From Octopus sinensis (lineage: Eukaryota): a stretch of DNA of 64,000 nucleotides. The position numbers were made by a program, and so were the translations under genes. Under the pieces are notes generated by a model. That model was not told where the DNA came from. It was given only the letters and a program-made list of their open reading frames with translations, and searched no databases. Numbering within the stretch: the first letter of the stretch is position 1; the number at the start of each line of letters is the position of its first letter. Of the stretch, positions 9,246 through 53,435 are shown piece by piece. The DNA is taken from the NCBI RefSeq assembly GCF_006345805.1, contig NC_042997.1, positions 100,812,001 to 100,876,000 on the forward strand, given 5' to 3'.

Positions 9246-9602
9246 TTCTCTATTTATGAGATGAAGAATTATGTACATTATTTACATTATTTATATTTGA
9301 CGGATATTTGTCCTCATTTGGTTTGTTGTTAACACAACGTTTCGGTTGATATACCCTCCAGCCTTTATCAGGTGTCTTGCGGGATGTTTCGAACCGGGAT
9401 TCTTATTCCTAAGGTATTTTTCGATGTTATTATTATTATTATTATTCACTTCCTGGAATCGAACTCGGAATCTTGGGGCTAGTAGCCAGCGCTCTTCTCC
9501 ACTACGGTATATACCCGTAGTGGTTAAGAGCGCGGGCTACTAACCCCAAGATTTCGAGTTCGATTCCAGACAGTGACCTGAATAATAATAATAATAATAA
9601 TG

Positions 9603-9635
<33 letters not shown>

Positions 9636-11651
9636 GTAATAATAATAATAATGATAATAATAATAATAATAATTATTGAATAATTGGCAAATAAATGAAT
9701 AAATGAATAAATGAATAAATGGCAAACAGTCCTACACCTCCAAACAAAAGAGGGACTCATGAAAACCAAAGACATCCCCATTAGAAGAGGAATATTCCAG
9801 GGAGACACGTTCTCTCCACTCCTTTTCTGCTTGGCACTGTCACCTCTATCTGATATGCTAAATAGAACTGGATGCGGATATAAATGTTACGGCAAAACGA
9901 TCAGCCACCTTTTATATATGGATGACCTAAAACTATACGCTGCAAATGACAAACAGCTGGAAACACTATTAAAGACAGTTCATGGATTTACCAAAGAAAT
10001 AGATATGAAATTTGGATTAGAAAAATGCGCCAAAGTAACCATGAAAAGAGGAAAACTAGTTAAGAGTAACAACATCACACTAGATAAAACCAATGAAATA
10101 AAAGAATTAGACCAAAGCCAAACTTACAAATACTTAGGAATCCATGAACTAGATAAGACACAACACACACAAATGAAAGAGAAAATAAAAAAAGAATATT
10201 ATAGACGAGTTAGATCAATACTAAACACAGAGCTCAATGCTAAAAACAAGATAATAGGTATCAACACTTTAGCTGTCCCAGTTATAAGTTACAGCTACAA
10301 TATCCTTAACTGGACACGAAATGAACTGACCAAAATAGATAGGAAAACAAGAAAAATAATGACAGGATCTAGGATGCATCACCCAAAATCTGACATAGAA
10401 AGACTATATATACAACGTATAGAAGGTGGTAGAGGCCTTATACAGCTGGAAAACTACTATAATATAACCACCATAGGACTGCAAAAATATCTACTTCAGA
10501 AGGAAGGAAAACTGATCCAGATAGCGGCAAAACACGAGCAAAACAAAAAACTGTTCTCAGTATTTAAGGAAGCTGACAAATACAAACAAGAAATCATAGC
10601 ACCTAATAAACATGAAGAAGAAGAAGAAGATGGAGAAACAACAAAAGCTATAAAACAAATGAAATCCAAACTAAAAATAGAACAGCAACGAACCATGATA
10701 AAACGATGGCAAGAAAAGCCCCTTCATGGTAAATACTGGACTAAACTAAACGCAAAAGAAATAGACAAAGAAAAATCCCAGCAATGGTTGAGAAGCTCAG
10801 GACTCAAAGCAGAAACAGAGGGATTTTTAATTGCAGCACAAGACCAAAGCCTCCCCACCAGAAATTACCAAAAACATGTAATGAAAAGAAATATAACAAG
10901 TAACTGCAGAATATGTGGAGATGGACAAGAAACAATAAATCATATTATCTCTAGCTGCCCAGTCCTGGCTAAGAAGGATATATTCACAGACATGACAGAG
11001 TTGGAACCTACATACATTGGAAGCTATGCCAACATTATGGAATAACAACAGAAAAAAGATGGTATAGGCGCACACCAGAAAAGGTCACAGAAAACGAGAA
11101 AGCAACCATACTCTGGGATATGCCGATACACACAGACAGAGAAATTAAGGCCAACAGACCAGATATAGTTGTCAGAGACCATGAAGAAAAAAATGCTTTC
11201 TAATTGATGTATCAATACCGGCTGATGAAATTAAGGCCAACAGACCAGATATAGTTGTCAGAGACCATGAAGAAAAAAATGCTTTCTAATTGATGTATCA
11301 ATACCGGCTGATGACAACGTGTCTCTAAAAGAAATGGAGAAACTCTCAAAATACAAAGACCTGGAAATAGAGGTAACTAGAATGTGGAATCTGAAAACAG
11401 AAACAATTCCTATCATAGTAGGTGCACTAGGCATGATAAAAAAATATTCAGACAAATACATAACAAAAACACCAGGACTTACAAACACATATAACATACA
11501 GAAAATTGCACTACTAGGCACTGCACACATCCTACGCAGAACACTTTCCATACAATAACCATCAGAGCATCACAACAAACCACAGCACATACCCAAGGCA
11601 CACAGAGCTGCGCTCGGTAGGGAAGTGAAAGCACGCTATAAAATAAAACTA

Positions 11652-11716
<65 letters not shown>

Positions 11717-11871
11717 TAATAATAATAATAATAACAACAACAACAACATCGAAAAATACCTTAGGAATGAGAACCTCGGTTCGAAATTTCCCCAAGACAC
11801 CTGATGAAGGGCAGTTGAAACGTTGTTAACAACAAGATGAGGACAAATATCCGTCAAATGTAAATAATGTA
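9246..11871. mobile_element. Palindromic tRNA-headed hammerhead SINE (family C), interrupted by an R4/Dong LINE
   Basis: Left arm 9246-9506. The right arm is split into a head at 9517-9580 and a body at about 11650-11871. Both arms match the uninterrupted copy at 46610-47111. Confidence 0.8.
9690..11655 (+). mobile_element. 5'-truncated R4/Dong-like non-LTR retrotransposon (RT + CCHC + restriction-like endonuclease)
   Basis: ORF 9711-11045 has GIFQGDTFSPLLF, YMDD, YKYLG and CRICG..ETINHIISSC. Frameshifted RHD, NRPDIVV, IDVSIP, KLSKYKDL follow. AATAAA at the 3' end and (TAA)n on both sides. Confidence 0.85.
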
Positions 11872-11989
11872 AATGTTTATATACTTTAAATCATAATATT
11901 CCAAAACTCGATTCGCGTAAATGGCGCAAATCTGCAACGAATAGCTGTGTCTGACTCTTGTTGTTGGTGGTGGTGGGGCTCTCAGTGAA

Positions 11990-34470: not shown

Positions 34471-37400
34471 ATGGACATGGACATGGAGGTGAAAAAAACC
34501 AAAAAAGGAAGAAAAACTGAAGCTAAAACACAGACAAAGCCAAGGGGCAAGGCAGCCAGGGATAGAGGCAAACCTAACTATCCATATGCCAAAAGGATGG
34601 AAACAAGCAGCGCACACGGGTATGTAGGTTCTACCTGAAGGTGCCTGCCGGCATGGAGAGGAAGGTGCAGGCTGCCGCTTTGCACATCCGGACCCTGCCA
34701 CAGAAACCAACCACCGAAAGGAAATGGGATGGACCACGCATCACCTGCCCCAAAACGGAGGTACGCAGATGTGGTGCGTACCACAAACCACCAACGTGTT
34801 GTTGAAAGGGCAGCTGCTGAGCAGGAATCTTTTTTGTGCATGGCACAAAAGATTGTACAGCAGCTAACCTGGCTCCATCAGGCTCAGGCTCGCAGATGGA
34901 ACTGCCCACAGTTCACAAGACCGCCACAGGACAAAAGTCCCGTTCCTGAGAGACTTTGTCGCATGCAATCAAGCCTTATGCATAGCACTCACAGAAACGC
35001 ATCTGAAACCGGACATAGCAGATGCGGAATTACACATACCACAGTATGTTGTACTACGGACCGACAGGAAAGAAAGGAGTCATGGAGGAGTTGCTATGTA
35101 CATCCGTGGGGACCTCACACCCCAGGTCCTTTTGTCATACTCAAACTCGGTGTGTGCACACTAATTGTACACATAAGGCACTTTGATGTAGTTGTGTGTG
35201 CTACATATCGCCCTCCAGATGCCCCAAGTCATATGGGCAAGTTTGAGGACTGCCTTTTAAAAATAGAAGAAGTTCTAATCACATTAGAACAACACATAAG
35301 TGTACTTCTCATGGGAGACTTCAATCTACCCAATGTCAGATGGCCCGAGGGCCTTTCTCTCCCAGGAATGACAAGATGTGAACGAGGACAGGCGAGGTCC
35401 CTCCTGAACCTCATCAACACCCTGTACATGGAGCAAGTAATACTCCAACCAACCAGAGCAGGTAACACACTGGATCTCTGCTTCACAAATAATATGGATC
35501 TCATCCATAATGTGAAAGTGACACCGACACTACTCTCGGATCACAACATGGTAGAGCTGACCATGTACGGGCCAAAAGAGAGCACGGACATGCAGCCTAC
35601 AAGAAACCCTCAGAATCTTTCCAGCTTGAACTTCAATAAGGCAAACTGGAAACAAATTGAGAAAGAGATCCTCAAACAAAACTGGCCTGAATGTCTCTCC
35701 TCGCCGGACATCGACATGATACTTCAACAATTCATGTCTGTAATGCAAGCCATATGCTACAATGTGTCCCAGAGAGAAAGGCCACTGTACACAAGGACAA
35801 AATCCCCAGAGAGAGGAAAAATTTAATGAGACGGCGTACAAAAATTTCAAATCGCCTAACAAACAAATTGAAAGCAGTGAAAAGTCCCGCCTGAAAATAA
35901 AACTGTTGAAATTGAAAATTGTCTGCAACTCTCCCATGAGAAGGAAGAGCAGACAAAGAAGCCTGGGCTATAGACAACATAAAAACTACCCCAGAGCTTT
36001 CTACAGGTATGCCAAAGAAACAGCTACGGTGCACTGTAGGATAGGCCACTCCTTGAAAAGGATGGCACACTCACAGGAAAACCAATGAGGGTAAGTGAAA
36101 TACTGAATGAACAATTCAAGAGTGTTTTCACCTCACCCTTGGGCATTTCCAAATCAGCAATCCAACTGACTTCTTTACCACTGCAGATATAGAATCAGAG
36201 GCGGCGACGATAAATTACATCGATATAAAGGAAGACGATGTAATAAAGGCTATAGATGAAATGAAAACAGACTCAGCTATTGGCCCGATGGATTCCCGGC
36301 AATCCTCCTAAAAGTATGTAAGAGAGTCCTAGCAAGACCACTGCAGTTCCTCTTTCAGAGCTTCCTTGCAGCTGGCAAACTTCCAAGAAAACTGAAGGAA
36401 GGTAAAATATGCCCTATTCATAAAGGAGGTAGCAGAGCGGAGGCCAAGAACTACAGACCTATCTCTCTGACCTCACACATCAGCAAGGTCATGGAACGAA
36501 TAGTCAGAAGGAAACTAATCACCTTCCTTGAAGAAAATGACTTGCTGCCTGACACCCAACATGGTTTCCGACCAGGAAGAAGCTGCTTAACTCAGCTCCT
36601 GCAGCACTATGACTGGGTGCTGAAACAACTGCTCAACCACTCAAATGTGGAAGTCATATATCTCGACTTCGCAAAGGCCTTCGATAAAGTCGATCATGGA
36701 ATGATATGTCACAAACTGCGTGATCTTGGCATAGTTGGAAAATTGGGAGAATGGCTTCATGACTTTCTGAAGAATAGAAGTCAGGTGGTAGCAGCCAATG
36801 GGGCCACTTCCATTAGCACGCAAATTGTGAGCGGTGTTCCACAGGGCACTGTTTTGGGACCACTACTGTTCATAATGGCCCTCTCAGACATGCCCTCAGC
36901 CACGCGGAGAGCCACGATCACAAGTTATGCAGATGATACAAAAGTTTCACAGGCAATACAGAACCCTGAAGACACTAAGCACCTGCAATGTGAGCTGGAC
37001 GAAATATACAAGTGGGCTGAAAAGAATAGCATGCAGTTCAATGCTGAAAAGTTTCAAGCTTTATACTATCAGCATGCAAAACTGAATGCAATACCCAATG
37101 AATACACTGGACCCGGAGGGATTGCAATCCCAGAGGCACAATCAGTGCGTGACCTGGGTATTCACATGAGTGATGACGCGACCTTTCATGTGCATGTTGC
37201 TAAACTGACAATGAAATGCAGACGGCTGGCTGGATGGATTCTTAGAACCTTTAGAACAAGAGAACAAGAAACCATGATGGTCCTCTGGAAGACACTTGTC
37301 CTAAGCCACTTTGACTATTGCTCTCAGCTATGGTCACCATCCAGTGTCAAGTTTATCACAGAACTTGAGGCGATCCAACGAAGCTACACGAAGAAGATAG

Positions 37401-37920
37401 CCTCTGTGCAGCAATACGAGCTACTGGGAGAGACTCAAGAGATTAAAGCTCTATTCCCTGGAGCGTAGGCGAGAAGATATGCCATAATATATATCTGGAA
37501 GATCCTGGAAGGTCTTGTCCCAGACTTTGGCACCGAGAGTCACACAAACGCCAGAACCGGACGCCACTGCGTAGTACCAAGGACTCCAAATTTGCCATCA
37601 AGATGTAGGACAAGATATTGTGTTAGCCTGGGCTTCAGAGGCCCACGGCTCTTCAATGTCCTCCCGAAGAACCTGAGGGACCTGCATGGTGTAGATGCGG
37701 ATGTCTTAAAGTAGGACTGGATCTCTTCCTGTCAGGTGTCCCGGATGAACCAACTTCACGGCAGGAGGTGCAGATGAGGGCAGCTACATCGAACTCTCTC
37801 ATGCATCAGATGACGTTTGCTAAAAGCATCCGCGAGGTAAACCGTGTAGCAAACCAAATGGCGGTGCCCCAGCATGGCCACAGCTCATTAGCTGAAACTG
37901 GAAAAATCAAATCAAAATCA
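34471..37920 (+). mobile_element. CR1/L2-group LINE, near full length and frameshifted
   Basis: APE motifs YRPP, MGDFNLP, NTLDL, SDH. RT motifs QHGFR, YLDFAKAFDKVDH, GVPQGTVLGPLLF, YADD, RDLG. 3' tail GGCGGTGCCCCAGCATGGCCACAG...(AAATC)n. Confidence 0.9.
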
Positions 37921-40233: not shown

Positions 40234-41565
40234 CGAGAGTGAGGAGAGAGAGATAAAGAAAAAGAGAAGCAAAAAGTCAGGGGAGTAAAACCGAAACTTT
40301 ATTAATAAAATATTCAGATGAACACTCGCGTATGAGCATACAGATATTTATATGTTTACAAAATAAATAAATTTACAGGGAGTACAAAAAATACCGAAAG
40401 CTAAGGGAAAAAGTCATGATATTTTAAGTCCGATAGCTGTTTCTGGGGCCTCAGAATTACATAATAGTTGTACTGTTCATAACTGGCTGATGCAGCGTGG
40501 AAAAAATTCGAGGATACGCAATCAGTAGAGGTTTCATATAAACATTACCGTAATACCGGCCTCCTTCGTCACGGTAGAAAGATCGGCAAATAGTAAAGAC
40601 TTTGAGCGTAAGTTCAAATCATTTGAGCATTACTACGTGTGTTCTATGTTGAATATCTCTGGATCTCATTTGCAAACTATCTATATGTGCACACACACGC
40701 ATACATACACACGCACACACAAACACACACACACACATATAAAGTATGGAGGTTTAGTTCACAGGTGATTTACTAGGGTTCCAAGATTATAGCCGAGACG
40801 GTAGTTATGGAGCCATTGCAGATTTCCGATACAGTGGATATATAATTATTAAACAGGACAACAAATATTAAGGCAAAGGCAAACATCTCAAGTCGTATAC
40901 AATATTATTCTTTGAAGGGATTCAAAATCTAACAGCTGTTTCTGGGATATCCCCGAGTGTGGGATATTCTGTCATTAGATATATAGGGAAAAAATAGGGA
41001 AAATGAGAATGGTATATATTAATGAGATGACGACAAGGGAAGGGGGTAAAAGAATAAGGAGATGGAAAGAAAGAAGAAAAAGAAGCATAAAAATTCATAG
41101 TTCAACTTTCTGAAGTTATAGTAACAAGAGCATGAGTCCTTTGGTGCAATCCTGCGTAAATCCATGAGTGTAAGTCCTTAGGTGCAATCCTTTGTTGATC
41201 CATGTGGGTTAAAATCCTGATATAGTAGACATCCCGAGAAAAAAGACGCGAACATATCAACGTTCAATAACAGAAAGGTAGCGGAGGTGGCTGTGCGTAT
41301 ATATATATATAAAATTATTGAAGTATCATTTTAAGATAAAATGTATTAAGGTGTCACTAGTTAAGTTCTCAAATTGGAACGTTGCCCAAAGATCTTGGAA
41401 GAGATGTTTAAGGACATAAAGTGAACCAAAAGAGCAGTTATATATTAGAAAATAAGAGAGAATAGAACAAGTATATTTGGAATAGTCACAACAAGGAGTA
41501 TATTAACATATAGAATCGTATGATTAGAATAGGAATGTACAATAGAGAATAAGATGTATAAAAAT

Positions 41566-41652
41566 TCTTATGATCGTTTCACGATTATGTAACTTATCTG
41601 AATGAAATCGAAATGATAATCATATTGAAGCTGCATAACCATTCTTCAGAGA
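41566..41652 (-). ncRNA. Type I hammerhead motif, conserved boxes intact
   Basis: TCT-CTGAAGA-ATGGTTATG...CATAATCGT-GAAA-CGATCA-TA-AGA. One mismatch in the stem III palindrome. Confidence 0.6.
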
Positions 41653-42023
41653 TATAAAAGGAAGAAAACCGTTCTTAAATTTTAGCCGTGTTTATAAGAG
41701 TTAGTTAATTCATAGTGGTATAGTTATGAGTCATACGAATTCTGTATAAATTTCCAAATAGTAATCCGACACAATTAATAAAAATAATTGTTCCCTATTA
41801 ATATTTTTTCAGTCAGAAACAATATATTCAGTAGATACTACCTGCCCGCTAAATAAATGTTTCGGTTTTACTCCCCTGACTTTTGAACTTTCACTCTTCC
41901 AATGAATTTACATTTAGACACTTTCTATAAATTTATTCTCCACTAAGTCATCTATTTAACAATAATTATATTTGCATAAAATAGCATATATTCTCATACT
42001 TTTTATATCTATTGTTAATATTT

Positions 42024-42995
42024 TTGGAATTTTTCTGGAGTTGGACGTGTTTTTTTCCACCGTGAGTTAAATTGTTAATACTGTTGTCTTAACTGTTTTG
42101 CGTTTAGCGACATTTTGTTTTGATGCCTACAGCGGCTTTGTTGACGCTTTCCCCCCCTTGTTTGAAGGTGAATGTTGCCTGGCTGTTACCCGCCATCCTG
42201 TTACAGGCCAAACGTGGAACGTGGAATTGGCAAGGACATGGTCTGGAAATAATAATCCAGGCCGCCCAGGGGACTTGGAGAAGATGGCGGAAACCATCAC
42301 AGTAGGTGAAGAAGTGAAACTGAGAGTCGTGGAGGAGGGCAGGATGCCCCCGATGTTTTAAATGTGGCCAAAAAGGCCACATAAAGCAAAATGCTCTCCG
42401 TCTGGCTTAAAGGTACCAACACAGGAAGTCTTGCGACGCCGTGTGATGCGGTAGTGCGCGAGTAGGAGCCGGATAAGGAGGAAGAGAGGCAGAAGAAAAA
42501 AAAGAATGGAATATACAGGCCAAGAAGAGGAAAAGAGGAAAAAAGAACTGAAGCGAAACCCCGTCCTACTCCATTCTAACAAACGGTTAAGAAAAGAAAA
42601 TTTAAAAAATGAACTTCCCTGTGTCGGTGGACGTGTCGGGGTGTGAGGGATTTCTCGAGCAGTCCGGATGTACCCTTGTGAGTGATGAAGAATGGAATAG
42701 ACTGATAGGAAAGTATGGGACAGAGATTACGGACTTGAATATGGAAATCGATACAAGTAGCCACCAACCCTGGGCTTTTCGTAACCTTTATTTCGGAAAC
42801 GATTAACTGATGATAATGTTATGAATTCATTGTTTTGTAAACGTGTTAAAAAGTTTAAATGAAGTCGCTCGGATTGTGGGGTCGAGCGACCTTCGTTTCA
42901 TCTATCCATTCTTTTTCACAATATCTTGTTTCATTCGATTTTTGCCCCCACTTGTGCTGTCCTTGTATTGCCCCTTATGGGCAATAAAGAATTCG
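42024..42995 (+). mobile_element. Non-autonomous retroelement with a zinc-knuckle ORF1 remnant (L1/Tx1-like)
   Basis: Frameshifted RCFKCGQKGHIK(A)KC (CX2CX4HX4C) at about 42352-42394. AATAAA at 42983. Possible diverged 18-bp TSD at 42006-42023 / 42996-43013. Confidence 0.55.
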
Positions 42996-43429
42996 TATCA
43001 ACTGTTAACATTTACAATTATTATGAAAAAATTATACTGGATTACAACAATGAAAATCTCTCAAAACTGTCGGATTACTATTTGGAAATTTATACAGAAT
43101 TTGTATGACTCATATCTATACCATTATGAATTAACTAACTCTTATAAACACGGCTAACATTTAAGAACGGTTTTCTTCCTTTTATATCTCTGAAAAATGG
43201 TTATGCAGCTTCAATATGATTATCATTTCGATTTCATTCAGATAAAATACATAATTATGAAATGATTGTAAGAATTTTTATACATCTTCTTATACTCTAT
43301 TATACATTCCTATTCTAGTCATTTACGTGGTTATGCAATTCTATATGTTAATATACTTCTGTAACTATTCCAAATATACTTATTCCATTCTCTCTTATAT
43401 TCTAATATATATATATGTATATATATATT

Positions 43430-45628: not shown

Positions 45629-46609
45629 GTAAGCAGAATGTTTTAAAGCAAAGAATCTCTCACTTTTATAATTTGTATCGTCGTGGTATGCAAGAACATT
45701 GTTGCATTTTTGGCAAACTGAATTTACAACTCGATTTTGATTCGACACACTAGCATCTTTGATTAATAATATCTTTAAATAATGACTTCAGTGAAGGCGC
45801 ATGACCTAGGGATTAATGTTAGTGGTTAAGTGGCTTACAATTATAAGGTCATGAATTCGACACTCGGTGGCGCTTTGTCTTGGAGCAAGACACTTCATTT
45901 CACGGTGCTTCTGTTTACTTACCTGGCAAAAATGAGTAGTACCTGTATTTTAAAGGGCTATCCCTGTCGCGCGGAATCTCCCAGAGAACTACGTTAAGGG
46001 TACGTGTGTGTATCTGTGGATTGCTCAGTTACTTGAACGTTAATTTCATGAGCTGTTCCGTTGATCGGGTCAACTGGAACCCACGTCGCCTGAAGGAAAT
46101 AATAATTTCACAGGCTGTCTCAATATTGTTTCTTATATACGCTTGTTAACTTTCTTAATGTGATATCGCGTTGTAAAGTGATGAAGTAGCGAAGGGGTAA
46201 TAAAAGAAATATACAAAGCTATTTAAATTCAAAACTTACCATTTCATTTAAACAATTGATAAATAGGGTTGATTGGAAATACTACTTTATCTGCTCCATA
46301 TGTCTAAATTTTCAAACATTAATAAGTTGTAATTATCGGTATCGTCTATGATCTGGGTTAGCAGTTTGGGTTACACGTAGAGGAGGGCAGATGAACACGG
46401 AAAGTATGCTTAAGATGGTGTCGAACCAGCATTTTTAAGGAGCAGTTGTCGTTATAATGATGATAGGAAAGATGACAGACAATATCGTGTCGAAGAATGT
46501 TTGTATCCTTCGATACCCTTTAATATATTTATAAACAAGCAGATATCGCCCTTGCTTCTCATGAACCTAGAAATACGTGTGGTTAATGCTCGTGAGTAAA
46601 ATATGTTAC

Positions 46610-47111
46610 GTACATTATTTACATTTGACGGATATTTGTCCTCATCTTGTTTGTTGTTAACACAACGTTTCGGCTGATATATCCTCCAGCCTTCTTCAGG
46701 TGTCTTAGGAAATTTCGAACCTGGGTTCTCATTCCGAAGGTATTTTTCAATGTTATTATTATTATTATCTTTAAGGTCACTGCCTAGAATCGAACTCGGA
46801 ATCTTGGGGTTAGTAGCCCGCGCTCTTAATCACTACGCCCACTGGCATATGGCGTAGTGGTTAAGAGCGCGGGCCACTAACACAAAGATTCCGAGTTCGA
46901 TTCGAGGCACTGACCTGAATAACAACAACAACAACAACAACATTGAAAAATACCTTAGGAATGAGAACACCGGTTCGAAATTTCCCCAAGACACCTGATG
47001 AAGGCTGGAGGGTATATCAGCCGAAATGTTGTGTTAACAACAAACAAGATGAGGACAAATATCCGTCAAATGTAAATAATGTACATAATTCCTCATCTCT
47101 TAAATATAGAA
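46610..47111. mobile_element. Palindromic tRNA-headed hammerhead SINE (family C), uninterrupted copy
   Basis: Arms 46610-46839 and 46851-47084 lie head to head around an 11-nt spacer, plus a 27-nt unpaired tail. Each arm has a tRNA-like head (GGCGTAGTGGTTAAG...GAGTTCGATTC), (AAT/AAC)n and a hammerhead. Confidence 0.85.
46659..46704 (-). ncRNA. Minimal type I hammerhead motif, core intact
   Basis: GACAC-CTGAAGA-A-GGCTG-gaggatatat-CAGCC-GAAA-CG-TT-GTGTT. The mirror copy at 46990-47035 (+) has CG>TG in stem III. Confidence 0.7.
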
Positions 47112-48329
47112 AATATGTTACAATTATAAAGAGGATCCTAATCTTAAAACAAGTTTTAGGTTGATGATATCATTTGAGGTAATCATTATGGTATGTATTT
47201 GTACAGTGAGATTTTAGTTACTCATGATCAAAGTGATGTTATATATTTTCCAATTAATGAGTAGTGTTTGCGTTCAGGGCAGTTAAATGTCAGTAGTTAT
47301 AGAAACTCTATTATTGAAAGTATATGTGTAGACAGGAAAATTCTATTGTTGGTGTTACTTCTGATAATCGGAGGTTTTTTTTTTGTGAGATAATATAGAT
47401 AATTTAATAGCGTCAACTGATTTTGTAGGCACCGCTAGATATGAAATAATGTTTGGTTGTGTTTTGGAAGTATGAAATTCAAAGAACAAAAGGAAAAGAA
47501 ATCAATGCATTTATCTAACAGAATAGATTGATATATTAAATAAATCCTGCTGGTTTTTAATTAGCAATTTACTAGCATTCTACAGATGTCAGATTTAAAT
47601 TGTTGGATCTATTTCATCTCCAAATTGCTTTTCAAAGTCATCTATTGATGCAGGAGCACTAAATCAGTGGTTCTCAACCACTTTTTTTTTTACCTATAGA
47701 CCCCTTTGATTTTTATTTTACTTGGGTGGACTCTCACATTTAATTTTTAATAAAACCCTATTGTATTTTTATAATTAAACATTATTAGGAATTGTATAAA
47801 AATATTAAAATAATGTATTGTAAAAGTGTAACCAGAAAATGTTTGCAACATAATTTTATATGGTCCCAGGTTGAGATTTAGACTCCGGCTCTAAATTAAC
47901 CAATTCTATCATTTAGCCGATTTATTTTACATACAGCAAAGACGAAATTAAGAAGATATATAGTGTTTCAAAACTGTTCTTAATGGAATATAGATATTAG
48001 TTTCATTTAATCTTAGTTTATTCACAATAGGAAGGTAATTCAATCGGAAAAGGCTTAAACTAAATATTCCTTCAGATACCTAAATTTGGCGATTTATCTA
48101 ATTTGTGACAGTATCTAGAAGCGTCTTAGAAGAAAGAAAAAATATTAACACCTACGAGTTATGTTCAATCTTGCGTTATATGAGTATTTTCTAAAGATTT
48201 GAAAAAAGACTTCTCTTTCGTTATAAAATATCTTATCTTATAGAAACACTTGAAAAATATAGCAGAGTACCAACTGTGTAATACGAATAGATATTACATG
48301 GAACTTCTATTTTAAAATGCTCAGTACAG

Positions 48330-50831: not shown

Positions 50832-51992
50832 ATACAAAATGAGAAAATGGAGAAATATATCTAAATCAATCATCAACTATCAGATAATACCGAATCATAT
50901 ACTTTATTAAAACACTACACAATAGCAATGAGATTAGACATTAATACAGTACAATAATTACAATCAATATGGTGAGATATAACTAAATAAATATAACAAG
51001 ATATAAAAATACATATACATTATAACTGACAGCTGTTTCGGCCATGAAGATAGGTATGTCTCATTTAACCTATTAGCCATATATTGCAGGTATAAATGAG
51101 ACATTAACAAGAATATATTACGGCCTCTTCGGAGATTCTAATGCAAGTATGAGTACAAACCCTAAAATAATTTACATATAAATATAAATATGAGTGCATA
51201 CATACTCATATCCTTACATATATATACATATACATATACACAATAATACAATATACATCAACAAACACAATAATGTTCCATATTGAACACCACAGCTCCT
51301 CAACCAACATCAAGAAACCACAACAGACACACTCACACCCAATGCAGGCATATATATTAAACAGTTCAATATATTAAAATGTGTCACTTCACAAAAAGCC
51401 AATAAAGTTAATACCACCACCATAGTACCATTCAAGGCAAATGGATATCTGCATATATATGCAATCAGTTAAATTCCTCTGTTTGCATGGTATTAATTTC
51501 CACAGATGCATTCGATTGACCTATACTTTTAAATTTGAATTACAATAGATATTTTACGGTTAGTTAGCTAGGAAACATACACACGCGCACGCACATCCAC
51601 AAAACGTGCGCACATACAGACATAGTCATATGTTTACACACAGACATACTCACATACACAACCAAATCATAAATAAATAAATAAATAACATAAGAGGTAC
51701 TATCCCATCTATACACTAAGTGTTTACAAACAGATCCACTCACATATGTCCATAAATCCGTAAATGCAATCATACATATAATTATACCTAGATGTCAGTT
51801 ATAATGTATATGTATTTTTATATCTTATTATATTTATTTAGTTATATCTCACCATATTGATTGTAATTATTGTACTGTATTAATGTCTAATCTCATTGCT
51901 ATTGTGTAGTGTTTTAATAAAGTATATGATTCGGTATTATCTGATAGTTGATGATTGATTTAGATATATTTCTCCATTTTCTCATTTTGTAT
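50832..51992. repeat. 200-bp near-perfect inverted repeat of PLE type
   Basis: 50832-51031 versus 51793-51992 with one mismatch seen. A minus-strand hammerhead remnant lies at 51026-51134. Confidence 0.9.
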
Positions 51993-52505: not shown

Positions 52506-52930
52506 GTAAGTTAACATTTTGGTGTTGTACATTTTAGTAACTTCCGCCACAAAGGTGTCTTTAGATTCGCTACATATTTGTGTTACTTAGCTTCGTGTAA
52601 ATGATGGACAACACCTTGTGAACAATTAACAGAAGTTCTATTCACTGGACGTAGTATTTTTCATGTTGGTTCTTGAATGCTGAATACAAACAATGAAACA
52701 ATAATTATATACACGGGAATAGATAAACTTTACAGTTATGATCAAATAGTAAGTAGGCTAGTACAATTCTGTAATTACACTGTCACAACTTGAGAAATAT
52801 CATATTAAATTCAAAACAGGAAACCTGTAGCTGCCAACTTCTCGGTTGAATAAGTAGTTGTTAAAACAACTATTGGCATGCCGTTTCTGCTCCGGGTGAA
52901 AAATGAAAATGGAAATAAGAATGTTGTTCA

Positions 52931-53233
52931 TTATTTACATTATTTACATTTGACGGATATATAAGATTTATAAGCACTAAATTTCACTCCATAATTGCTT
53001 ACGGGCATATGGCGTAGTGGTTAAGAGCGCGGGCTACTAACCCCAAGATTCCGAGTTCTATTCCACGCAGTGATCTGAATAATAATAATAACAACAACAA
53101 CAACATCGAAAAATACCTTAGGAATGAGAACCCAGGTTCGAAATTTCCCCAAGACACCCCATGAAGGCTTGAGGGTATATCCGCCGATAAGATGAGGACA
53201 AATATCCGTCCACTCATCTCTTAAATATAGAAC
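52931..53233 (+). mobile_element. Family C element with most of the left arm deleted
   Basis: Stub of the left arm, then tRNA head, (AAT/AAC)n, decayed hammerhead and the CTCATCTCTTAAATATAGAA tail. Confidence 0.75.
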
Positions 53234-53435
53234 TGAAAAATGTTTTCGTAGCAGCGGTCTCCAACATTCTGAAGGATTAGGTTAGCCGTCAGTGTGGGCA
53301 GTGCTCCGGGAGCAAAATTTGCTTAGTGGGTGCAAACCAAGGTCCAAATTTTTTTACGTAAAAAGAGTTTTTCAATGTTAACATTAAAACAAATGCACGT
53401 ATAATAATAATTTTTATTATTATGATGGTCGGCTA

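What the first reader, a model, noticed from the sequence alone, without database searches (positions are those of the whole stretch)
46610..47111. Palindromic tRNA-headed SINE carrying a hammerhead ribozyme in each arm: candidate Penelope-mobilised, Pol III-driven retroelement
Seen in the sequence: two copies of one unit are joined head to head across an 11-nt spacer. The unit is a tRNA-like head with A and B boxes, an (AAT/AAC)n tract, and GACAC-CTGA(T/A)GA-A-GGCTG...CAGCC-GAAA-CG-TT-GTGTT. One arm has an extra ~27-nt tail. The same double structure recurs at 9246-11871 (tail on the other side) and partly at 52931-53233, so the palindrome appears to be the unit of insertion. Established: Penelope-like elements carry minimal type I hammerheads, often insert as inverted repeats, and have a short unpaired tail. 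Schistosome Sm-alpha repeats combine tRNA-derived sequence with hammerheads. Inference: this is a non-autonomous SINE/retrozyme hybrid using PLE enzymes rather than a LINE, with divergent Pol III promoters and an ACGT stem III that needs dimer formation to cleave. I cannot tell whether it is already catalogued.
Basis: partly seen in the sequence, partly recalled or inferred. Interest (0 to 1): 0.8.

Follow-up and report, generated by a model that had tools for sequence, protein, structure and literature searches.

The report
Penelope retrotransposon carrying a tRNA promoter
The palindrome is two truncated end-pieces of a very abundant protein-coding Penelope-type jumping gene, inserted back to back; its end repeat begins with a tRNA-derived sequence that likely acts as an RNA polymerase III promoter and would let the element spawn its own SINE-like short copies.

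Summary
It is the terminal repeat (pLTR) of a Penelope/Poseidon-type element. The order is: ORF stop, 29 nt, tRNA-derived head (A/B boxes), (AAT)n, then the first ~50 ORF codons, which hold the hammerhead and the tail. I estimate about 65,000 insertions (19 in 800 kb).

The palindrome fits Penelope-type integration. Arms are truncated independently, exactly one arm carries the ~30-nt tail in 41 of 46 pairs, and target duplications are mostly 12-13 nt. Six of 19 random insertions run into the ORF.

What is unusual is the tRNA head in the pLTR of a coding element. It is kept in a sister family and absent from other PLEs tested. 5' ends pile up 5- to 11-fold at the head start. The sense strand lacks T4 runs (0 in 2.6 kb, 2-5 expected; P 0.004-0.10 depending on the null).

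Pol III drive is inferred, not shown: one RNA-seq run showed only read-through. No intact ORF copy was found and cleavage is untested. I found no report of this arrangement in nine literature searches; Repbase and Dfam could not be checked.

The parts
46598..46609 (+). Left target-site duplication (12 nt)
   Evidence: identical to 47110-47121
46606..46839 (-). Inverted arm: tail-less pLTR copy, 5'-truncated at about +9 of the tRNA head
   Evidence: 89.5% identical to the sense arm; ends mapped
46659..46704 (-). Minimal type I hammerhead of the inverted arm, with core and AACGTT palindrome intact
   Evidence: sequence; stems I and II are the MFE fold, z=-2.9
46787..46797 (-). B box of the inverted arm
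   Evidence: sequence
46841..46917 (+). tRNA-derived head of the sense arm (+1 = 46843; A box 46850-46860, B box 46893-46903); no cloverleaf
   Evidence: alignment to the genome's own tRNAs; tRNA profile; fold no better than shuffles
46918..46943 (+). (AAT/AAC)n tract of variable length, often interrupted by later insertions
46961..47110 (+). First 50 codons of the PLE ORF (putative ATG at 46961), open through hammerhead and tail
   Evidence: translation; continues into the RT ORF in L202, L225 and L235; matches the N-terminus of relative P0003
46990..47035 (+). Minimal type I hammerhead of the sense arm; predicted cut after 47030 (GUU); stem III palindrome damaged by C-to-T at 47027
47047..47098 (+). 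9-bp stem with an A/C-rich loop; the tail-less 3' end lies in the loop, the tailed 3' end past the stem
   Evidence: fold z=-2.5; 3'-end classes; loose ends at 47082-83 and 47111
47083..47111 (+). PLE 'tail' (~29 nt), on one arm only
   Evidence: 41 of 46 arm pairs have exactly one tail
47110..47121 (+). Right target-site duplication
9246..11874 (.). Second insertion of the family, tail on the left, split by a LINE in the AAT tract; 13-nt TSD with one mismatch
52930..53235 (.). Third insertion: 31-nt inverted stub plus a sense arm that begins in the last ORF codons (stop 52971-52973, head +1 at 53003)

Best explanation
The element is a head-to-head pair of 5'-truncated copies of the terminal repeat of a Penelope/Poseidon-type retrotransposon, and that repeat starts with a tRNA-derived sequence that likely serves as an internal RNA polymerase III promoter. 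Shown: the order ORF stop / 29 nt / tRNA head / (AAT)n / ORF start with hammerhead, stem-loop and tail; independent truncation of the arms; one tail per insertion; 12-13-nt target duplications. Inferred steps: (1) Pol III starts a few bases before the head on any pLTR and reads a T4-free sense strand past the tail. (2) The PLE protein binds the ORF-start stem-loop. (3) It nicks both target strands 12-13 nt apart and primes one cDNA at each nick, one from the tailed start site and one from the tail-less start site. (4) The two cDNAs meet at their 3' ends through microhomology, helped by the short palindrome around the head start, and give an inverted pair. Every new copy that keeps the head would again be a promoter, so the family would amplify as a SINE built into its own autonomous parent. 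The hammerhead is inherited from the PLE, would cut only as an intermolecular dimer or with protein help, and is probably not needed for insertion.
For: pLTR identity: 26 of 30 loci fetched with the ORF end have the head just downstream, and 29 of 30 have head or body. RT and C-terminal GIY-YIG-type ORF. The tail runs straight into the ORF in L202, L225 and L235. Relative P0003 has the same N-terminal peptide across the hammerhead. Geometry: one tail in 41 of 46 pairs; TSD of at least 11 nt in 31 of 46 versus 6 of 820 mismatched flank pairs. This matches the PLE signature (PMC8557442, passages) and in vitro nicking and extension of both strands with two internal RT start sites (PMC11167929, parts 1-2 of 4). 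Promoter: 46 of 77 head-bearing arms start at -8..+8 (three ends at -16 counted in this class as fold-back palindromes), 10.7-fold above background; in random blocks 5 of 17, 5.3-fold, P=0.003. About 25 of these have no palindromic centre. A sister family keeps A- and B-box-like motifs at the same place while the sequence between them has diverged. Sense-strand T4 runs: 0 in natural copy L202 (2,625 nt), 0.41/kb over 77 kb of decayed copies, 0 in 2,271 nt of sister-family ORF, against 1.6-3.4/kb in Dong-, CR1- and Neptune-type controls and 31 observed versus 29 expected in six clusters of distant PLE relatives.
Against: No discrete transcript was seen. In the one raw RNA run (another or unknown species, cDNA library, 6% read) 81% of 9,585 laid reads run on into unlike sequence, both orientations are equal, and no start or cut site piles up. 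Coverage along the ORF falls about 100-fold from 3' to 5', like genomic truncation. In the unbiased sample the pile-up is modest: P=0.04 against the adjacent +9..+45 zone. The T4 deficit is post hoc and weak under stricter nulls (P=0.085 order-1 Markov, P=0.10 own codon usage), and one distant relative also has none (L312, 0 versus 1.5 expected). The sister family's head scores only 6.5-7.9 bits, in 4 of 11 loci. No intact ORF copy was found; the longest natural open frame seen is 322 aa, and the protein search of the genome failed.
Confidence: 0.65

Rival explanations
1. Ordinary Pol II-driven PLE. The tRNA-like head is a relic SINE insertion or part of a Pol II promoter, and all short copies are plain 5'-truncated PLE copies whose ends collect at the head because that is the Pol II start, an RT stall site, or a preferred annealing palindrome.
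For: 6 of 19 random insertions include ORF sequence. The head start contains a 12-nt palindrome, and another palindrome in the ORF end also serves as a junction (C15 locus). RNA data show only read-through. An ORF must be translated, which normally needs a capped Pol II RNA (established knowledge). The T4 deficit is not significant under the two strictest nulls.
Against: About 25 arms start at -4..+8 with no palindromic centre. A- and B-box-like motifs persist in two diverged families. T4 runs are scarce in both families but not in controls.
Confidence: 0.26
2. One reading: an independent non-autonomous SINE/retrozyme hybrid whose unit of insertion is the palindrome, borrowing the enzymes of a separate PLE.
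For: Most copies carry no RT or endonuclease sequence, 13 of 19 random insertions are two-armed, and 5' ends cluster at the head as in SINEs.
Against: Head, tract and body all lie in the coding element's own pLTR. The body is ORF sequence. None of 13 random two-armed insertions has both arms starting at the head.
Confidence: 0.07
3. Non-LTR retrozyme: tandem units self-cleave into monomers that circularise and are reverse transcribed by rolling circle.
For: A few loci hold tandem bodies (L012/L013, L167), and retrozymes are proposed to derive from pLTRs (bioRxiv 10.64898/2026.07.22.740005, parts 1-3 of 5).
Against: Copies are dispersed and inverted, not tandem. Ends are fixed at the tail sites and the head, not permuted or at the cleavage site. 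No RNA ends pile up at the GUU site.
Confidence: 0.02

Closest known systems
Penelope/Poseidon-clade PLEs, e.g. Poseidon of Anolis carolinensis (PAc; Frangieh et al. 2024, PMC11167929)
   Same: RT plus C-terminal GIY-YIG ORF; hammerhead at the pLTR-ORF junction overlapping the ORF start; two 3' ends defining a ~30-nt tail near an A/C-rich stem-loop; inverted 5'-truncated partner copy; AT-rich targets.
   Different: No tRNA-derived head is described for PAc in the parts I read. Here the pLTR starts with A/B boxes, the sense strand lacks T4 runs, and pLTR-only copies dominate.
Minimal PLE hammerheads (Cervera & de la Pena 2014, PMC4209133, parts 1-2 of 4 read)
   Same: Extra base between positions 9 and 10.1, G10.1-C11.1 pair, short helix I, palindromic helix III; dual motifs 100-700 bp apart on opposite strands were already noted there.
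   Different: Nothing in the ribozyme itself. Activity here is untested; metazoan ones cleave poorly in vitro.
TRIMp3: Cassandra, Helenus, Ajax (Kojima 2024, PMC10886601, part 1 of 6 read)
   Same: Small-RNA-derived Pol III promoter captured in a terminal repeat; boxes kept, RNA fold lost.
   Different: Those are non-autonomous LTR elements with PBS/PPT and 4-5-bp TSDs. This is the pLTR of a protein-coding PLE.
tRNA-derived SINEs, including octopus OK/OR1/OR2 (Ohshima & Okada 1994, not held; seen only as cited in PMC4824008 and PMC4758252)
   Same: tRNA head with A/B boxes, ~270-nt unit, very high copy number.
   Different: No LINE-type 3' repeat tail; two fixed 3' ends and inverted pairing; the head is part of the autonomous partner. 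OR1/OR2 are cited as CORE-SINEs. I could not compare sequences, so identity with a catalogued repeat is not excluded.
Schistosome SMalpha and animal non-LTR retrozymes (PMC8490949 passages; PMC7229834 passages; 2026 preprint)
   Same: Short non-coding repeat with a type I hammerhead, linked to PLE pLTRs. A tRNA-like part in SMalpha is recalled, not seen in these passages.
   Different: Those are tandem arrays giving circular RNAs. This is dispersed, inverted and traceable base by base to a coding PLE.

Membership tests
EN+ PLE, Penelope/Poseidon clade | Single ORF with RT and C-terminal GIY-YIG endonuclease | tested here: met
   RT motifs and RVT_1 in relatives and weakly in L203. A GIY-YIG-type C-terminus with Cys/His residues was read by eye; Pfam did not score it. 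All copies seen are broken.
EN+ PLE, Penelope/Poseidon clade | No Zn-finger-like linker between RT and EN (present in Neptune/Nematis); DKG motif | tested here: met
   Linker lacks the CxxxxCxxC seen in this genome's Neptune-type ORFs; DKG present in L202
EN+ PLE, Penelope/Poseidon clade | Clade placement by RT phylogeny | not tested
   no named reference proteins were held
EN+ PLE, Penelope/Poseidon clade | pLTR overlapping the ORF start, with hammerhead | tested here: met
EN+ PLE, Penelope/Poseidon clade | Inverted 5'-truncated copy and a 30-40-nt tail at one end | tested here: met
   41 of 46 pairs; tail about 26-31 nt
EN+ PLE, Penelope/Poseidon clade | Spliceosomal intron in the pLTR (some members) | tested here: inconclusive
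   no sense-strand splice joint among the joints listed
Minimal type I hammerhead of PLEs | CUGANGA and GAAA core, helices I and II, extra base after A9, G10.1-C11.1, palindromic helix III | tested here: met
   core intact in 70 of 108 arms, palindrome in 55, everything in 25; in random blocks 9, 7 and 0 of 22; folds
Minimal type I hammerhead of PLEs | Compensatory stem changes | tested here: inconclusive
   None within the family, only decay. Stem II is unchanged and its loop changed in the sister family. One double change is inferred from the P0003 protein only.
Minimal type I hammerhead of PLEs | Self-cleavage as a dimer | not testable with these tools
   needs an in vitro assay; no RNA ends at the site
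tRNA-derived SINE | tRNA-derived head with A and B boxes | tested here: met
   13 of 28 ORF-linked copies score at least 8 bits with a tRNA profile, versus 0 of 8 Neptune and 0 of 58 distant-relative loci
tRNA-derived SINE | Pol III transcription | tested here: inconclusive
   indirect only: 5'-end pile-up and T4 deficit; RNA-seq uninformative
tRNA-derived SINE | Head distinct from the autonomous partner, sharing only a 3' tail with a LINE | tested here: not met
   the whole unit is the partner's own pLTR
tRNA-derived SINE | Poly(A) or short-repeat 3' end | tested here: not met
   two sharp unique 3' ends
Non-LTR retrozyme | Head-to-tail tandem units, each with a hammerhead | tested here: not met
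   0 of 19 random insertions are tandem; tandem bodies in only a few selected loci
Non-LTR retrozyme | Circular RNA | not testable with these tools
   no RNase R data
TRIMp3 (Helenus/Cassandra) | Two direct LTRs with PBS/PPT, 4-5-bp TSD, non-coding | tested here: not met
   inverted arms, 12-13-nt TSD, coding parent

The most novel reading that the evidence does not exclude
An autonomous, protein-coding retrotransposon transcribed end to end by RNA polymerase III. A Poseidon-type clade captured a tRNA promoter in its pLTR, purged Pol III terminators from its 2.5-kb ORF (0 T4 runs; Phe codons 13 TTC to 4 TTT versus 47 to 43 in controls), is translated without a normal cap or from read-through RNA, and throws off SINE-like pLTR copies that regenerate their own upstream flank as palindromes.
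Probability: 0.3. Interest if true: 0.85.

Novelty: new variant of a known kind. Interest (0 to 1): 0.6.

Why it matters
SINEs are defined as Pol III heads grafted onto LINE tails, and PLEs are assumed to use Pol II promoters in their pLTR (recalled). Here the tRNA head sits in the terminal repeat of the coding element itself. That gives a direct route from an autonomous PLE to a SINE-like family of tens of thousands of copies, and a PLE counterpart to the Pol III-promoter LTR elements Cassandra and Helenus. If the ORF-wide lack of T4 runs reflects Pol III transcription, this would be a protein-coding transposon on Pol III and would raise a testable question about how it is translated. The many two-armed copies with one tail each are also a large natural dataset for the still unsettled two-nick model of PLE integration. 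Practically, automated annotation will split this element between 'SINE' and 'Penelope'.

Tried and rejected
- Rfam and ARAGORN found no hammerhead or tRNA; the microRNA hits are simple-repeat or hairpin noise.
- A GIY-YIG Pfam search of the genome (150 of 5,029 candidates scored, 30 loci read) returned mostly Neptune-type PLEs. None shares this 3' end, so they were rejected as partners.
- A DNA search with the tail alone returned nothing; the tool skips very common words.
- The TATA-like motif 30 nt before the head is the ORF's last codon plus stop, so it was not treated as an upstream promoter.
- The LINE inside the 9246 copy is a later insertion, not the mobiliser.
- A protein search of the genome for an intact ORF gave no usable answer.
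- The first metagenome scan was empty. The second gave only distant relatives, and 72 of 80 fell in one cluster.
- A strict A/B-box regex was too insensitive (4 of 29 positives) and was replaced by a profile.
- One search scored one sister-family piece on the wrong strand (3 T4 runs); corrected to 0.
- crashed, so no dimer energy was computed. The hammerhead counts were mis-indexed and replaced.
- The run search listed no indexed holder on record as RNA, which is no evidence either way.
- The 1994 octopus SINE paper is not held.
- Earlier-finding searches by sequence, by place and with the longer word list were empty.

Full report
Observation. The window lies on C1 of a 2.72-Gb animal genome; I take it to be an octopus-like cephalopod from recalled repeat content, not from a call. 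At 46606-47111 two arms face outward from a centre near 46840 and are 89.5% identical. Each has a tRNA-like head, an (AAT/AAC)n tract and hammerhead boxes. Only the right arm has the last ~29 nt, and a 12-nt target duplication flanks the pair. The two other window copies are real. The 'spacer' is the start of the right arm, and the left arm lacks its first ~8 head bases. Rfam and ARAGORN recognise neither motif. The head aligns to the genome's own tRNAs, best to tRNA-Arg(TCT) with 49 of 74 identical and z=7, though few isotypes were sampled. It does not fold as a cloverleaf.

Family survey. I read 60 loci found by similarity to the body and 800 kb of blindly chosen sequence in eight blocks. 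After merging pieces by hand and leaving out one sister-family locus, the blocks hold 19 insertions, or roughly 65,000 genome-wide (Poisson range 39,000-101,000). Of the 19, 13 are two-armed and 6 single. The arms are truncated independently at their 5' ends, anywhere from the ORF to the last 30 nt. None of the 13 has both arms starting at the head, so the symmetric palindrome is one outcome and not the unit. I dropped 8 of the 60 loci as the window itself, overlapping, or a duplicated flank. Over the remaining loci, the blocks and the window, 41 of 46 automatically paired arms have exactly one tail; some of the five exceptions look like mis-pairings of neighbours. 31 of 46 have a duplication of at least 11 nt, mode 12-13, against 6 of 820 mismatched flank pairs. 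3' ends fall in two classes about 30 nt apart, and both appear as loose ends in reads and contigs. There is no poly(A) or repeat tail. Arms in the blocks and the window average about 90% identity to the column majority. Runs from three coded organisms hold the sequence.

The parent. Several random copies extend upstream of the head, and one runs into sequence that reads as a GIY-YIG C-terminus. Searching with it gave 30 loci, of which 26 have the head 29 nt after the ORF stop and 29 have head or body. Longer stretches show an RT ORF with DKG and YVDD-type motifs and no Zn-finger linker, unlike the Neptune-type elements found earlier, which do not share this end. In near-full-length copies (L202, L225, L235) the tail continues directly into the ORF. 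An ATG at window 46961 opens a frame through hammerhead and tail. A 55%-identical 847-aa relative begins with the same peptide across the hammerhead. The unit is therefore the pLTR of a Penelope/Poseidon-type element: head and tract are the 5' UTR, and the body is the first ~50 codons. Clade assignment rests on domain order and motifs, not a tree. All copies seen are broken. 6 of 19 random insertions, and the window's third copy, include ORF sequence.

How the palindrome forms. Inverted 5'-truncated partners and a 30-40-nt tail at one end are the described PLE signature (PMC8557442, passages). Purified anole Poseidon protein nicks and extends both target strands, starts reverse transcription at two internal sites near an A/C-rich stem-loop within the ORF start, and does not need hammerhead cleavage (PMC11167929, parts 1-2 of 4). 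Here a 9-bp stem pairs the tail with the post-hammerhead segment (z=-2.5); one 3' end lies in its loop and the other beyond it. I infer two cDNAs, one per nick and one per start site, joined at their 3' ends. The short palindrome around the head start would make cDNA ends self-complementary and explains the recurring centre sequence. Some loci carry 10-25 nt of inverted head before the sense arm, which suggests fold-back extension. These steps are inference.

The hammerhead. It has all features listed for minimal PLE hammerheads, and dual motifs on opposite strands 100-700 bp apart were already reported (PMC4209133, parts 1-2 of 4). Stems I and II are the MFE fold of the left arm. The core is intact in 70 of 108 arms and fully intact in 25, but in 0 of 22 random arms. 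The changes are plain decay, with no covariation. The two motifs of one insertion are on opposite strands and cannot pair in cis; a read-through RNA would be expected to form a long duplex that masks them. Cleavage is untested.

What is unusual. The pLTR begins with a tRNA-derived head. A tRNA profile scores at least 8 bits in 13 of 28 ORF-linked copies, 6.5-7.9 in 4 of 11 sister-family loci, and below 3 in 8 Neptune loci and 58 loci from four clusters of distant relatives. Two of those relatives have a hammerhead in the same place. The sister family, about 75-80% identical, keeps A- and B-box-like motifs after its own ORF end while the sequence between them differs. 5' ends collect at the head start: 46 of 77 arms at -8..+8, 10.7-fold over background. 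In random blocks it is 5 of 17, 5.3-fold, P=0.003, but only P=0.04 against the adjacent zone. The body-selected loci favour young copies. About 25 such starts have no palindromic centre, which favours a transcription start over an annealing hot spot. The sense strand has no run of four T in 2,654 nt of a majority yardstick or in natural copy L202. Expected counts are 4.9 (shuffle, P=0.004), 3.7 (control codon use, P=0.011), 2.4 (Markov, P=0.085) and 2.2 (own codon use, P=0.10). Other retroelements here have 1.6-3.4 per kb, distant PLEs 31 against 29 expected, and sister-family ORF pieces 0 in 2,271 nt. T4 as the metazoan Pol III terminator is recalled knowledge. The test was post hoc.

RNA. 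In one raw cDNA run from coded organism A, 9,585 of 12.9 million records lie on the element; 81% run on into unlike sequence, orientations are equal and no ends pile up. Coverage along L202 falls about 100-fold toward the 5' end; one end pile lies beside a skipped repeat and one has six molecules. This is what passive read-through of many copies gives. It neither shows nor excludes a short Pol III RNA.

Literature. Nine searches turned up no tRNA-headed pLTR or Pol III-driven PLE in the listings or in the parts of the eleven papers I opened. The nearest are TRIMp3 elements (PMC10886601, part 1 of 6), retrozymes as pLTR derivatives (2026 preprint, parts 1-3 of 5; PMC7229834, passages), SMalpha (PMC8490949, passages) and octopus SINEs known to me only through citations. 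A 2026 octopus repeat annotation lists many unclassified SINE and Penelope families without describing them (PMC13282606, parts 1-2 of 3; supplement listed, not read). Repbase, Dfam and subscription journals could not be searched, so prior cataloguing is possible. Three earlier scan notes describe tRNA-bearing, ribozyme-free, non-coding elements with PLE-type insertions in other genomes. They are unchecked leads that hint tRNA capture by PLE systems may recur.

Verdict. The feature is real and mostly explained by known PLE biology, with one apparently undescribed addition: a tRNA-type promoter in the pLTR of a coding PLE. Identification as a PLE pLTR about 0.95; Pol III drive of short copies about 0.65; Pol III drive of the whole element about 0.3.

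Noticed in passing
window 9711-11650: 5'-truncated RT plus zinc-finger LINE (Dong/R4-like by recalled motifs; RVT_1 and zf-RVT) inserted in the AAT tract of the 9246 copy. AAT tracts of other copies are also interrupted (L018, L026, a C5 locus with about 7 kb of inserts).
   Followed up: partly
L236-L266 (e.g. G000:C10:25448488-25449027): Older sister PLE family with its own tRNA-like head, an A-rich tract in place of (AAT)n, and a hammerhead with a GUA site and a 3-bp helix I.
   Followed up: partly
L037, L038, L047 and many loci: Abundant Neptune-type PLE with open frames of 780-781 aa at several loci. Its 3' UTR has a hammerhead-like motif with a non-canonical first box, read by eye.
   Followed up: no
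window 46610-47109, run X24: RNA reads show 21 A>G and 11 T>C places against 4 and 4 in the large contig set X15. This could be A-to-I editing of the long duplexes these palindromes would form, or simply species and paralogue differences.
   Followed up: no
proteins P0001-P0004, P0007: The closest relatives share the low Phe content (2.2-2.5%) of this family, while most distant ones have 4-6%. Their DNA is unseen; they may belong to the same T-poor clade.
   Followed up: no
L167; L012/L013; L199: Rare tandem copies of the hammerhead-tail body (four in a row in L167), the only places where a cis-dimer could form.
   Followed up: no
L007, L016, L017, L019, L023, L027: The same insertion in one flank occurs at six loci, so it was carried inside another repeat or duplication.
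   Followed up: no
window 34639-37468: Endonuclease plus RT LINE (CR1-like by recalled motifs) with two long open frames; used only as a control.
   Followed up: partly
window 41548-43291 and 50832-51992: Inverted repeat pairs of 224 nt (94%) and 203 nt (99%) around 1.3 and 0.75 kb; possibly DNA transposons.
   Followed up: no
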